The position numbers and the translations under genes are program-made. A stretch of 63,110 nt of DNA, counting the filler, from Octopus bimaculoides (taxonomy: Eukaryota), in the NCBI RefSeq assembly GCF_001194135.2. It is 4 parts of 4 records of this genome, joined end to end, with 100 filler letters (N's around TTAATTAATTAA, not from the genome) between each part and the next. Parts side by side here need not be neighbours in the genome. Positions count along the whole stretch, not along the records: positions 15,082 to 38,569 come from NC_068985.1; positions 38,670 to 63,110 come from NC_068982.1; 2 more parts are not named here. The stretch is one strand, 5' to 3'. Below the pieces are notes generated by a model that saw nothing but the letters and a program-made list of their open reading frames with translations, searched no databases and was not told where the DNA came from. Shown here piece after piece: positions 22,502-43,010 of this stretch. Positions within the stretch are counted from its first letter, which is position 1. Each line of letters starts with the position of its first letter.

Positions 22502-22668
22502 AGGTGGTGTAAACAACAAAAGGATGTATTAGTTTGACTCTCGGGAATACAGAAAGTCTTTAACGTTTCGAGCTACGCTCCTCAACAGAAAGAATACGGA
22601 GAAAACAAGGAGAAAAACACGGAGAGAAAAAAATTGAATGGTGTTTGGTCAACGATCTATCATGGCTT
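22502..22668 (-). mobile_element. ~190-bp dispersed element carrying a variant hammerhead-like motif (copy A)
   Basis: Homologous to 42810-43010; motif at 22556-22594. Confidence 0.75.
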
Positions 22669-22684
22669 CATATATATATATACG

Positions 22685-22750
22685 TCTACCAAGGTGCATT
22701 CCAGTGGGACTGAACCTGGAACCATGTGGTTAGTAACCAAGCTACTTACC
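22685..22750 (-). mobile_element. tRNA-SINE head fragment
   Basis: Minus strand ggtaagtagcttggttactaaccacatggttccaggttcagtcccact (A/B-box-like). Confidence 0.7.
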
Positions 22751-23084
22751 ACTCACAACTACTCACGACCACTCACAAACAATGAAATCATTTTAAATGA
22801 CATCTGAGATATTGCCTACTTATCCTCGGCAAAATTTAATCCTGGTCATCAACAGCGAACCTGAGAGTTTAATTTCTTCTGACTAACACACCTCATTGCA
22901 TTTTTCTTAGATAATTTACTAGAATTCTGTACTCAAATATTTCTCGCTAAAAATATTTCCGATTCGCCATAAGCTCAATTATATAACTCACTCTTAAATG
23001 TTAATCAGTCTCAAATTTGTACTATGTAGATAGGTTAAAAAAAAAAAAATCTCGAAATATTTCCTTGTCATGGACGTGAAACTA

Positions 23085-23530
23085 TAGTGAGAAGATTGCT
23101 TCCCAACCATATGGTTCTACGCTGAATTCCACTACGTAATAGTTTTACAATTGTCTCGGAATGAGCAGCACAAATTTGAGAGTGGATGAGGTAGACGGAA
23201 ACTGAAAAAAACCCATCGCATGTATTTCTAAGTCTCTTATGTCTGCCTGTCTTTCTCTGTATGTAAATATGCGTGTGTGTATGTGTGTGTGTGTGTGTGT
23301 GTGTGTGTGTGTGTGTGTGTGTGTGTGTGTGTGTAATTGAGTCTATTTTCTTGCCCCGTGACAGCTTGACAACCGGACTTAGTGTGCTAACGCCCCAGCA
23401 ACCGACCGGTTCAGCAAAAAGGAAACGATGGAATAAATGCTAATCTTAAAATATAAGAAATGGGTTTGATTTGTTCAACTGAAATTCATCAAGACGGTGC
23501 TCCATCACAGCTGAAGTCTAATGACTGAAA
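23085..23530 (+). mobile_element. tRNA-derived SINE with internal (GT)n, diverged
   Basis: ttgcttcccaaccatatggtt..gtagacggaaactgaa..cttgacaaccg..aatgactgaaa. Confidence 0.75.
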
Positions 23531-24559
23531 GAAGTTAAAACAGAAAAAAGATATAGATTTCACGTGTAAATAATGTGCGTAAAACTCCAAGTAGTTGAAC
23601 AGGATACCTAATTACACACACATGCGTATGTGTGCGTATTGTGTGTACATAGCTGTGCGTTAATATACATATGAGGTTATACAGATACACAGATGTTTTT
23701 GAATATGCACAAACACAAATACTTGCGCATAAATACTTTCATACATACGTAATAAATATGTCAATTGTTGCAGTTTTTAAATATATGACGCTATTGAATA
23801 TATGTGTTTTGTGCATACAGTATTGTTTATTTTTTTGTCATTTGAGAATCAAATAAGGGTGTTCATAAGTAGGATGTTGTCACATAGACACGTGTACGGA
23901 ATAAACAAATACATATTATGTTTGTGCGTATATGAGAATGTATTTATTATTGTTTGAGCTTTAAAAAGGTATGCTCTAGCACACCTCCCATATATTTATC
24001 CAGTAGACACTATTCTACATTTTTAACAAAAAAAACAAATGTGTTGTCAGTTATATTCTACATCTAATTGTCACTACAATAGCAAGCTCAATCACAGTAA
24101 TTGACGTATTCATATACAATCATAGATAACATCATCGCCGTCAGTATCATTATTACCGATATTTGTTCTTTTCATTGTTGGTCACCGTTGCTTAGTTAGA
24201 AATGAACACGGCTTCATTAGATATATTATTAAGGGCCTTCTAGCCGTAAGCACCCAAACTGTAATTTTCAGACTACAGACGCACCCTTACTGTAGCTCTA
24301 TTTATGCAGGTTATTCCTCTTACATACGCCATTTTTTTACAAATTTATTAAAGTGGAGGTCATCAAATATCTCTTTATCCTCACCTTGCTTCGAAAACGT
24401 CGATGACGGCCTATCAAAAAAACAAAAAGACCTTTTCAAGCCTTTCATTCGCATCAAAAGGAAAACATTTTTGCTATAGCCAACAAAGAGAGGAAAAATA
24501 CCTGCTATTCCCACACAAAGGAAGCTGACTGGTGATCTTCACTTGGCTGATGGCCGGAT

Positions 24560-39740: not shown

Positions 39741-39754
39741 ATAAATTTCAACAC

Positions 39755-40012
39755 CACTGACGAGAAGATTCAGCAAGCTCGAGAGATGGTAATGGTGAAC
39801 CGGATCAGCGTTACCATCTCTCAGATCACTGCTTTTTGTTCTTTTTTGGTGCGCATTACTAGTGGAGAAGCCATGCTTAAACTGTAAATGCAGAAAGGAA
39901 AATGTCGCGATCAGGTTTAAACGTGGTTGACGTGACCACAATAGTACCAAATATAAGCACGCATGAGCAGAAAGCAGTGTGACAATAATAAAGATTTGAC
40001 TTCCGTTCGTGT
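39755..40012 (-). mobile_element. Rearranged mariner 5' fragment
   Basis: Minus strand MASPLVMRTKKEQKAVI joined to a plus-strand TDEKIQQAREMVMVNR segment. Confidence 0.65.
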
Positions 40013-40344
40013 ATATATATATATATATATATATATAGACATGCATATTTTTATCTATTCATATGATATATAAACGTAGATAACAATACATATATACACA
40101 CCTATGTATATATGTGTATATACACATATATATATATACATATATTCCTATCTACCCATATACATACACGCATACATACATAGACACACACATAAATAGA
40201 TATGGTGAGCTTCTTTCAGTTTCCTATCTCAAATATACGCACAAGGCTTTGGTCGGCCCTGGGCTATAACAGAAAACATGCTCAAAGTGCTTATCTCTTG
40301 TTCTGTACATGTTTGTATGTATGTGTGTGTATGCTATATTTTAT

Positions 40345-40760
40345 TTTGTTTCAGTCATTAGACTGCGGCCATGCTTGTGCACCGACTTGAATTTTTTTGT
40401 CGAACAAATTGACCCCAGTACATATTTTTCACCCAGCACCTACTGTAGTAGTTTCTTTTTGCTGAACCGCTTGGTTAAGAAAACATAAACAAACCAAAAC
40501 CGTTTATCAAGTAGTTGTGATGGGTGAACACAGACAGAAATACACACACACACACACACACATATACACATATATCTATATGTATGTATGTATACATATA
40601 CTGGGCTTCCTTTACTTTCCGGCTACCATATCGACCCAGAAAGCTTTTGTCGCCTCGGTGCTATAGTACACGACACCTACATAAGTTGTCACGCAGTGGA
40701 ACTGAACTCACAGTCACATTGTATACAAGCAAACTACTTTCCACACAGCCATACACACAC
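40345..40760 (-). mobile_element. tRNA-derived SINE (a partial copy precedes it at ~40200-40290)
   Basis: gactgcggccatgct..tgtcacgcagtggaactgaactc..cttccacacagcc-like head. Confidence 0.8.
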
Positions 40761-42809
40761 ATATGCACACATATGTACATATATACCCTCATACATGCAT
40801 GTTATCCTTTACTTCGAAAAAAGAAGAAGGTTTAGCCTTAGCGAGGACATATATATCTCCCCCTATATATATATATATATATATATATATATNNNNNNNN
40901 NNNNNNNNNNNNNNNNNNNNNNNNNNNNNNNNNNNNNNNNNNNNNNNNNNNNNNNNNNNNNNNNNNNNNNNNNNNNNNNNNNNNNNNNNNNNNNNNNNNN
41001 NNNNNNNNNNNNNNNNNNNNNNNNNNNNNNNNNNNNNNNNNNNNNNNNNNNNNNNNNNNNNNNNNNNNNNNNNNNNNNNNNNNNNNNNNNNNNNNNNNNN
41101 NNNNNNNNNNNNNNNNNNNNNNNNNNNNNNNNNNNNNNNNNNNNNNNNNNNNNNNNNNNNNNNNNNNNNNNNNNNNNNNNNNNNNNNNNNNNNNNNNNNN
41201 NNNNNNNNNNNNNNNNNNNNNNNNNNNNNNNNNNNNNNNNNNNNNNNNNNNNNNNNNNNNNNNNNNNNNNNNNNNNNNNNNNNNNNNNNNNNNNNNNNNN
41301 NNNNNNNNNNNNNNNNNNNNNNNNNNNNNNNNNNNNNNNNNNNNNNNNNNNNNNNNNNNNNNNNNNNNNNNNNNNNNNNNNNNNNNNNNNNNNNNNNNNN
41401 NNNNNNNNNNNNNNNNNNNNNNNNNNNNNNNNNNNNNNNNNNNNNNNNNNNNNNNNNNNNNNNNNNNNNNNNNNNNNNNNNNNNNNNNNNNNNNNNNNNN
41501 NNNNNNNNNNNNNNNNNNNNNNNNNNNNNNNNNNNNNNNNNNNNNNNNNNNNNNNNNNNNNNNNNNNNNNNNNNNNNNNNNNNNNNNNNNNNNNNNNNNN
41601 NNNNNNNNNNNNNNNNNNNNNNNNNNNNNNNNNNNNNNNNNNNNNNNNNNNNNNNNNNNNNNNNNNNNNNNNNNNNNNNNNNNNNNNNNNNNNNNNNNNN
41701 NNNNNNNNNNNNNNNNNNNNNNNNNNNNNNNNNNNNNNNNNNNNNNNNNNNNNNNNNNNNNNNNNNNNNNNNNNNNNTTTACTATTAATACTGACACAAT
41801 TTACATTGGTCTATATGTCTCTTGTTGTAGTTTTAGTAAAGTTAGTGTTTAATCCTACCTATATATTGATTGATAGAAATAATGTGGTTATTAAGCTTTT
41901 ATTTTTACATTACACTACGGAAGTCGGTAGGGATTATAATTTTTTCTGACTTAATAGAGTAGTCGCTGTTTAGTTACGTATTTAGGAGTGGTTGTAATTT
42001 ACTGATGGAATTTATTTATCGATACGGTTGTACATTGAGCAAATGTGTTTGAAAGCTCTGGTTTCTTAGGTTTGTTTGTTCTCAAACAGCACGCATTTTG
42101 GTTCTGTTGACACCACCGGATTGAATGGTACTGCCCAGGTGTCGAAACCATAATTATATCCGTGAAGCAGCTGATGATGGAGGTATGTTGGATTGTTAGT
42201 ATGGCTGTGGAAGAGTATTATAGCACATCTTTTTGATATATATTTATATATATGTACAGACTTAAATATATATATATATATATATATATATATATATATA
42301 TATATATACAAATGTGTATATATGTGTGCGTGTGTGTGTGTATGTTCACATATAAAACTTATAAACGTTGCGTGAGCGATAGTACTTTAAGAACAAAAGC
42401 GCTTAATATTTAATTTCATTTATATCTATGTGTGCGTGCACGCGTATGTGTGTGTCTGAGTGTGTGAGTATATGGCTGTGTGGTTGTGTCTGTGTCTGTG
42501 TCTGTGTGTGTTTGTTATGTGTGTGCGTGCGTGTGTGTGATCTCTGAGTGTGATACAGTTTAAAATGCCAACAACTTCAGATCGAAACATTTCATTGCAG
42601 TACACCATTTTTTAACATTTCCGACTCTAATTTATTATCCAGTAGCTTAATAACAGCACTGACTCCTGCAGAATTGAGTGGTCTCAATGATAATGACGTG
42701 AAACCACGATATTTTGGTTTCATTCACTGACGATGAAAATTCAGCTGCGAATTCAGCTGTGTTGTGTTCCGTCTTTTCAACCCTACATATACATATACAT
42801 ATATATGTC

Positions 42810-43010
42810 GCCATGATAGATCGCTGACCACAACATTCAAATTTTTTTCTCCGTGTTTTCTCCTTGTTTTTCTCCTTATTCTTTCTGTTGAAGAGCGTAG
42901 CTCGAAACGTTAAAGACTTTCTCTATTCCCGAGTGTTAAACTAATACATCTTTTTGTTGTTTACACCACCTGTCGTCGTCTGTTGTTGTTTTTTTTCGTA
43001 AATTTTCCCA
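42810..43010 (+). mobile_element. Hammerhead-like element, copy C, between TA-rich tracts
   Basis: tctttCTGTTGAaGAGCgtaGCTCGAAACGTtaaaga at 42880-42916. Confidence 0.78.

What the first reader, a model, noticed from the sequence alone, without database searches (positions are those of the whole stretch)
22502..43010. Dispersed ~190-bp element with a conserved variant hammerhead core (three copies)
Seen at 22556-22594 (-), 39626-39666 (+) and 42880-42916 (+): (t/c)cttt-CTGTTGA-[A/G]-GAGC-gta(a)-GCTC-GAA-ACGT-[T/A]-aaag(a). This maps to type I hammerhead topology: a 4-5 bp stem I, a 4 bp stem II, a palindromic ACGU stem III that can only form as a dimer, and a GUH cleavage site. Core and stems are invariant across copies; variation falls in the loop, the extra purine and H17, although the flanks of copy B are clearly diverged. 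Deviations from the canonical core are A6-to-U and one inserted purine after A9. Established: small variant hammerheads associated with Penelope-like retrotransposons cleave as dimers. Inference: a very short, non-coding, ribozyme-bearing mobile element (retrozyme-like, or a solo pLTR) with an unusual catalytic core. Activity is unproven.
Basis: partly seen in the sequence, partly recalled or inferred. Interest (0 to 1): 0.75.

Follow-up and report, generated by a model that had tools for sequence, protein, structure and literature searches.

The report
Penelope retrotransposon stubs with muted hammerhead
These three short repeats are end-stubs of an abundant Penelope-type jumping gene, and they carry its hammerhead RNA motif with one normally fixed core letter changed across the whole family, a change predicted to fold the motif into an off state, so it likely cuts RNA weakly or only with help.

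Summary
The three motifs are real and are 3 of at least 6,344 exact copies in the genome. They are not an independent retrozyme. They are ~200-bp stubs of the pseudo-LTR of a Neptune-like Penelope element: longer copies run into an RT–CX4CxxC–GIY-YIG ORF, and one subfamily is 98–100% identical, so recently active. The motif is a minimal type I hammerhead. In 63 copies picked by flank, only N7, loop II and H17 vary between subfamilies; U6 is in 62. Sister families have canonical A6, and stem I covaries across families. The inserted purine is normal for this class. U6 is the oddity: it is predicted to zip the core into an inactive helix (13 of 16 copies, against 0 of 22 A6 copies), and 60 of 63 stubs span the cut site. 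Cleavage is untested. The scan has reported similar stubs and an A6C variant on other DNA. Verdict: new variant of a known kind.

The parts
22502..22666 (-). Copy A: pLTR stub of the Neptune-like Penelope element (3-nt-loop, U17 subfamily); 3' end lost in an assembly gap next to a (TA)n run
   Evidence: starts about 75 nt before the core; 157/162 identical to ORF-linked locus L305
22557..22593 (-). Minimal type I hammerhead of copy A: stem I 5 bp, core with U6, atypical G insertion, stem II 4 bp, ACGU palindrome, H17=U at 22562
39565..39752 (+). Copy B: pLTR stub of an older 4-nt-loop, A17 subfamily
   Evidence: 167/184 identical to L098, where the end is contiguous with the GIY-YIG region
39628..39663 (+). 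Minimal type I hammerhead of copy B: stem I 4 bp, core with U6, H17=A at 39659
42807..43009 (+). Copy C: complete pLTR stub (about 78 nt before the core to the fixed 3' end)
   Evidence: 186/200 identical to ORF-linked locus L305
42880..42916 (+). Minimal type I hammerhead of copy C: stem I 5 bp, core with U6 at 42888, H17=U at 42911
43010..43035 (+). (AT)n run following copy C, the likely insertion target
   Evidence: 36 of 50 flank-selected copies with a located end are followed by a TA run

Best explanation
The three copies are short stubs of the pseudo-LTR of a Neptune-like Penelope retrotransposon, likely made when the element's reverse transcriptase copied uncut RNA into (TA)n sites, and their hammerhead carries a family-wide A6U change that is predicted to hold it in an off fold. 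SHOWN: the full layout in natural copies is hammerhead-pLTR, ~560-nt pyrimidine leader, ORF (RT, thumb, CX4CxxC linker, GIY-YIG), CA-rich 3' UTR, hammerhead-pLTR; stubs share a fixed 3' end and mostly begin 60-90 nt before the core; hammerhead positions are conserved along the transposing lineages after U6 was fixed. INFERRED: the endonuclease nicks (TA)n DNA; reverse transcription starts inside the RNA at a short TA-alternating stretch where the pLTR meets the leader and runs to the RNA's 5' end or a strong stop, leaving a ~200-bp stub; U6 pairs with A15.1 and lets U4-G5-U6-N7 zip with the stem III bases, so a single motif is off and cleavage, if any, is slow and needs the element's protein or a second motif.
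For: ORF linkage: hammerhead found 370-910 nt downstream of the match in 22 of 30 loci found with upstream sequence only (one is the query, one lacks the 5' half); 9 of 20 RT+EN loci carry the same end downstream on the same strand, 7 of 18 chosen without knowing. pLTR-leader-ORF in 3 of 14 and ORF-UTR-pLTR in 5 of 14 extended loci, 2 of them across gaps. RT piece has 200 homologues at E<=1e-20, many 800-950 aa with RT and some with GIY-YIG domains. Young subfamily: 18 of 39 other matches >=98% identical; ~310 open codons across the RT motifs in L317. Selection: 0 of 30 constrained against 46 of 85 flank columns polymorphic; inherited:private changes 4:57 against 127:278, p=1.3e-5; N7 is T39/C12/G10/A2, H17 is T26/C19/A18. 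Stem I pair 4 is CG/GC/AU across families; other families in this genome have other palindromes after GAA. Off fold: MFE of all three copies; P(G5:C15.2)>0.5 in 13 of 16 U6 and 0 of 22 A6 natural copies. Uncut template: 60 of 63 gap-free stubs span the cut site, 1 starts at it. Literature: A6C is slow in Mg2+ (PMC7151607, PMC3088659); the anole PLE hammerhead cleaves only with protein and is dispensable for insertion in vitro (PMC11167929).
Against: No cleavage data. No intact full-length element was seen: the young ORF is mostly in assembly gaps. Pfam hits are below cut-off (RVT_1 23.2 bits, GIY-YIG 21.6 bits) and 7 decayed fragments of this family had none. 11 of 20 RT+EN loci lack the end. 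A U4A sub-lineage (3 of 66; ~6% of RNA reads) and a sister family with G17 (7 of 32) also multiplied, so an intact core is not strictly needed. Folding ignores tertiary energy, and stability z-scores are mostly unremarkable (-0.08 to -2.23 for the short stretches). The tree comes from the same alignment and is driven by the flanks, which inflates the contrast. An intact cut site in DNA could also come from a cut and re-ligated RNA. The internal TA stretch could be a TATA box instead (PMC3846280). Some 5' ends are alignment drop-outs in pyrimidine tracts.
Confidence: 0.7

Rival explanations
1. Same element, but the hammerhead is catalytically dead and the fold or sequence is kept for another job, such as a binding site for the element's protein or a promoter element in DNA.
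For: A6 changes are damaging (PMC7151607, PMC3088659); U4A and G17 lineages amplified; stubs span the cut site; no pile-up of read ends; Naiad elements spread without canonical hammerheads (PMC8557442).
Against: Variation falls exactly on the positions the catalytic model leaves free (N7, H17, loop II), and catalytic G8/G12 show no inherited change. The RNA libraries are fragmented and unstranded, so they cannot show ends.
Confidence: 0.2
2. An independent non-autonomous element (retrozyme-like or SINE-like solo pLTR) that copies itself as a ~200-bp or ~470-bp unit using the Penelope enzyme in trans.
For: Preferred unit length; stubs outnumber leader-bearing copies (8,822 against 130 exact motif hits); 13 of 29 leader-bearing places are ORF-less pLTR-leader-pLTR tandems, and two repeat one junction (466 and ~497-nt units).
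Against: Every stub subfamily has a longer counterpart with 3' UTR and the window copies match ORF-linked loci at 91-97%; the tandem junctions differ from locus to locus, as expected for one-off template jumps; most copies are dispersed monomers (1 close pair among the first 100 hits), unlike tandem metazoan retrozymes (PMC7229834).
Confidence: 0.07
3. A normally active dimeric hammerhead, with U6 tolerated.
For: ACGU palindrome conserved (59-63 of 63 per position); palindromes in other families; natural tandems put two motifs 120-750 nt apart; PLE hammerheads are reported to cleave as dimers (PMC4209133; review passage).
Against: Two-strand MFE uses UGUU/AACG, not ACGU/ACGU (-1.7 kcal/mol); even canonical minimal forms cleaved poorly as dimers (PMC4209133); almost no stubs start at the cut site.
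Confidence: 0.08

Closest known systems
Minimal type I hammerheads (min-HHR) in pLTRs of metazoan Penelope-like elements (PMC4209133; parts 1-2 of 4 read, supplement passages)
   Same: 4-5 bp stem I, one nucleotide between 9 and 10.1, G10.1-C11.1, palindromic 15.2-16.2, U-rich 5' flank, mostly single dispersed copies tied to truncated elements
   Different: U6 instead of A6 (outside the CUGANGAH consensus); stem II only 4 bp; motif lies ~700 nt before the start codon; predicted competing core helix
C-terminal-endonuclease Penelope-like elements with the CX2-5CxxC linker (Neptune/Nematis; PMC8557442, passages)
   Same: RT then linker then GIY-YIG with cysteines between GIY and YIG, pLTR tandems, inverted 5' fragments (L131), (TA)n targets
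   Different: Long pyrimidine leader and CA-rich 3' UTR; clade not separated from Nematis by a tree
Poseidon element of the green anole (PMC11167929, passages)
   Same: Internal start of reverse transcription giving fixed 3' ends; AT-rich targets; insertion from uncleaved RNA
   Different: There the start site is not homologous to the target and the core is canonical; here the start coincides with a TA-alternating stretch like the target and the core has U6
Natural A6C hammerhead of phage Bcep176 (PMC7151607 part 1 of 4; PMC3088659 passages)
   Same: Pyrimidine at position 6 in a natural hammerhead
   Different: A single bacterial-virus motif, C not U, tested (slow in Mg2+, better in Mn2+); here thousands of copies in an animal retrotransposon lineage, untested
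Metazoan non-LTR retrozymes (PMC7229834 passages; bioRxiv 10.64898/2026.07.22.740005 part 1 of 5)
   Same: Short, non-coding, type I hammerhead, related to PLE pLTRs
   Different: Those are tandem arrays with canonical motifs and circular RNAs; these are dispersed stubs with a coding parent and locus-specific tandems

Membership tests
Penelope-like element, EN+ C-terminal | Single ORF, RT followed by GIY-YIG | tested here: met
   Order seen in 20 of 20 loci chosen for both hits; homologues with both domains; Pfam scores below cut-off; no intact ORF seen
Penelope-like element, EN+ C-terminal | pLTR at both ends of the ORF from tandem arrangement | tested here: met
   pLTR before leader-ORF in L353, L354, L358 and after ORF in L356, L357, L361; both ends complete in one locus not seen
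Neptune clade | CX2-5CxxC linker and CCHH motif | tested here: met
   CX4CxxC before VIYC..YIG, histidines downstream; definition from PMC8557442
Neptune clade | RT phylogeny with Neptune rather than Nematis | not testable with these tools
   No clade-labelled reference proteins among the 120 listed homologues
PLE minimal hammerhead | Stems I and II, with covariation | tested here: met
   100% of 112 cells paired in 14 hand-picked copies; one pair changes on both sides with three types, 7 of 8 pairs never vary and stem II was fixed by the search pattern; imperfect stem I in 11 of 32 unselected A6 copies at pair 4
PLE minimal hammerhead | Core CUGANGA | tested here: not met
   U6 in 62 of 63, A6 in 0 of 63
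PLE minimal hammerhead | Inserted nucleotide after A9, GAAA, palindromic stem III, NUH site | tested here: met
   H17 never G in 63
Hammerhead ribozyme | Self-cleavage after H17 | not testable with these tools
   RNA reads show no end pile-up but cannot show ends
Non-LTR retrozyme | Tandem arrays of one repeated unit | tested here: not met
   Mostly monomers; tandems have locus-specific junctions; two local multimers
Non-LTR retrozyme | Circular RNA monomers | not testable with these tools
   Only 2-5 back-joining reads per joint, one matching a genomic tandem

The most novel reading that the evidence does not exclude
A6U is a built-in off switch: it converts the Penelope hammerhead into a closed hairpin so that reverse transcriptase can copy through it, and the element's own protein (or a tandem partner) reopens it to cut at a later step; the TA stretch just downstream primes insertion by pairing with nicked (TA)n DNA, which would explain microsatellite targeting in this clade.
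Probability: 0.2. Interest if true: 0.7.

Novelty: new variant of a known kind. Interest (0 to 1): 0.38.

Why it matters
What the hammerhead does for Penelope-like elements is an open question. This genome holds sister families that differ at one core letter (U6 against A6), both amplified to thousands of copies, with the rest of the motif still under selection. That is a ready natural pair for testing whether cleavage rate matters, whether the motif is protein-switched, or whether it has a non-catalytic role. It also shows that descriptor and Rfam searches miss the most abundant motif here. The element itself is an ordinary known kind.

Tried and rejected
Rfam: no hammerhead among the 150 of 215 window hits listed, none on copy C, none on a canonical-core sister either, so uninformative. 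Link to the GIY-YIG remnant at 20220-20650 or to GIY-YIG families from the Pfam genome search: rejected, they belong to other families with other hammerheads. B and C as two ends of one element: rejected, no ORF between. A shifted register (UUGAAGA): rejected, it breaks stem II, and A6 sisters fix the register. A downstream CGAGC pairing with stem II: probability <=0.09, dropped. Naiad clade: rejected, endonuclease is C-terminal. Run search: no RNA holder listed on record. RNA reads (2,378-3,308 per 11.5-12.9 million, both orientations, no end pile-ups) fit passive transcription and say nothing on cleavage. Lunse et al. 2017 is not held; only a review passage was seen. Searches for a published A6U PLE hammerhead found none (with 20 of 50 listed, 88, 89 with one of three supplement files unsearchable); the unseen Lunse paper and its supplements may contain it. 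Sequence and word look-ups in earlier findings for this family were empty. The host is probably an octopus (recalled from repeats and genome size, not shown by any search); PMC13282606 passages mention no ribozymes.
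Full report
Observation. The pattern occurs three times in the window at the stated places and never in 100 shuffles. The window is a pack of four stretches; copy A is in the third, B and C in the fourth. The same pattern has 6,344 exact matches in the genome and its reversed control none; a downstream flank motif has 8,822. 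Both are lower bounds.

What the element is. Twenty core-selected copies showed a fixed 3' end followed by (TA)n and ragged 5' ends. One copy (L083) ran 5' into a decayed endonuclease tail. Searching with that upstream piece alone gave 30 loci, 22 with the hammerhead 370-910 nt downstream, and upstream translations gave RT motifs, a thumb, a CX4CxxC linker and a GIY-YIG domain. Of 20 loci with RT and endonuclease hits, 9 carry the same end downstream on the same strand, 7 of 18 chosen blind. The best-scoring ORF copies are decayed, 53-79% identical to the queries, many with stops. A young subfamily exists: 18 of 39 other matches to one ORF piece are at least 98% identical and most run into assembly gaps. 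One locus has about 310 open codons across the RT; its 200 homologues are typically 550-950-aa RT proteins, named ones from shark, corals and snails. Extended loci give the layout hammerhead-pLTR, ~560-nt leader, ATG, ORF, CA-rich 3' UTR, hammerhead-pLTR. By the linker this is Neptune or Nematis (PMC8557442, passages). Window copies A and C match L305 at 96.9% and 93.0%, B matches L098 at 90.8%.

Is it a hammerhead? Copies were selected by a flank motif, not by the core: 71 distinct copies from 70 loci, of which 63 could be scored and 8 not (5 truncated, 3 with indels or many changes). Only N7, loop II and H17 vary at subfamily level; U6 is in 62, A6 in none; 32 of 63 keep every feature. With 5 truncated copies dropped (66 aligned), 0 of 30 constrained and 46 of 85 flank columns are polymorphic, and inherited-to-private changes are 4:57 against 127:278. 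The tree is built on the same alignment, so the p-values overstate. Sister families with the same stem II and inserted A but canonical A6 have 1,174 exact hits and homologous flanks. Stem I pair 4 is C-G, G-C or A-U by family (the 14 rows were hand-picked). Other Penelope families here have different palindromes after GAA. The inserted nucleotide is part of the published consensus (PMC4209133). No change at position 6 reached 5% in four contig sets under four organism codes or in RNA reads, with the caveat that reads were filtered by likeness.

What U6 likely does. It lets U4-G5-U6-U7 pair with A14-A15.1-C-G, closing the motif into one irregular hairpin. This is the minimum-energy fold of all three copies and of the two-strand complex, and has probability above 0.5 in 13 of 16 natural U6 copies against 0 of 22 natural A6 copies. 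A natural A6C motif is slow in Mg2+ (PMC7151607; PMC3088659). Against a strict need for catalysis: a U4A sub-lineage and a G17 sister family multiplied.

How the stubs likely form. Among 63 copies with gap-free 5' ends, 27 begin 61-87 nt before the core, 4 reach further, 60 span the cut site and 1 starts at it. Depth in a DNA-like contig set rises about fivefold over the same zone. The stub's 3' end coincides with a TA-alternating stretch at the pLTR-leader border in 21 of 24 loci with a located end (6 of 30 not located), and 36 of 50 stubs are followed by a TA run (21 of 71 not located). This suggests priming by pairing with nicked (TA)n; a TATA box is the alternative (PMC3846280). Internal initiation, AT-rich targets, an uncleaved template and protein-assisted cleavage were shown for the anole element (PMC11167929).

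Retrozyme test. Of 29 places with the leader start, 13 have a second hammerhead 238-603 nt on with no ORF, and 2 reach the ORF. The junctions differ at each place, so they look like one-off template jumps; two loci repeat one junction. No shared unit was found in this sample of 30 of 130.

Expression. Three RNA runs give 2,378-2,975 reads on copy C, mostly 90-95% alike, in both orientations, with no end pile-up. This is compatible with passive transcription and is no test of cleavage.

Verdict. A known kind of element and motif, with a family-wide core change for which I found no published report (Lunse et al. 2017 unseen). The scan has described Penelope stubs and an A6C variant in other genomes. 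Interest 0.38.

Noticed in passing
window 22261 (+): Another hammerhead-like motif with canonical core and a long stem II, 300 nt from copy A on the opposite strand; stem I poor.
   Followed up: no
window 20220-20650 (-) and 4-327 (+): Decayed GIY-YIG remnants of other Penelope-like families.
   Followed up: partly
L024, L026, L029, L035, L039, L041, L079: A Neptune-like family with a U3-A8 core and a 6-nt palindrome downstream of its endonuclease.
   Followed up: no
L184, L185, L194, L195, L199-L201: A canonical-core sister family with G at the cleavage position 17 (7 of 32 A6 copies).
   Followed up: partly
L192:1498 (-): Apparent chimera: 5' flank of an A6 family joined at the hammerhead core to the 3' flank of the U6 family.
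   Followed up: no
L374; L376/L377; L051:4005-4270; L146: Local head-to-tail multimers with hammerheads 466, ~497, 122 and 156 nt apart.
   Followed up: partly
L284, 5' junction of the young ORF fragment: The insertion follows three telomere-like TTAGGG repeats.
   Followed up: no
window 3128-4269 (-): Open frames resembling the endonuclease region of a LINE element (resemblance recalled, not searched).
   Followed up: no
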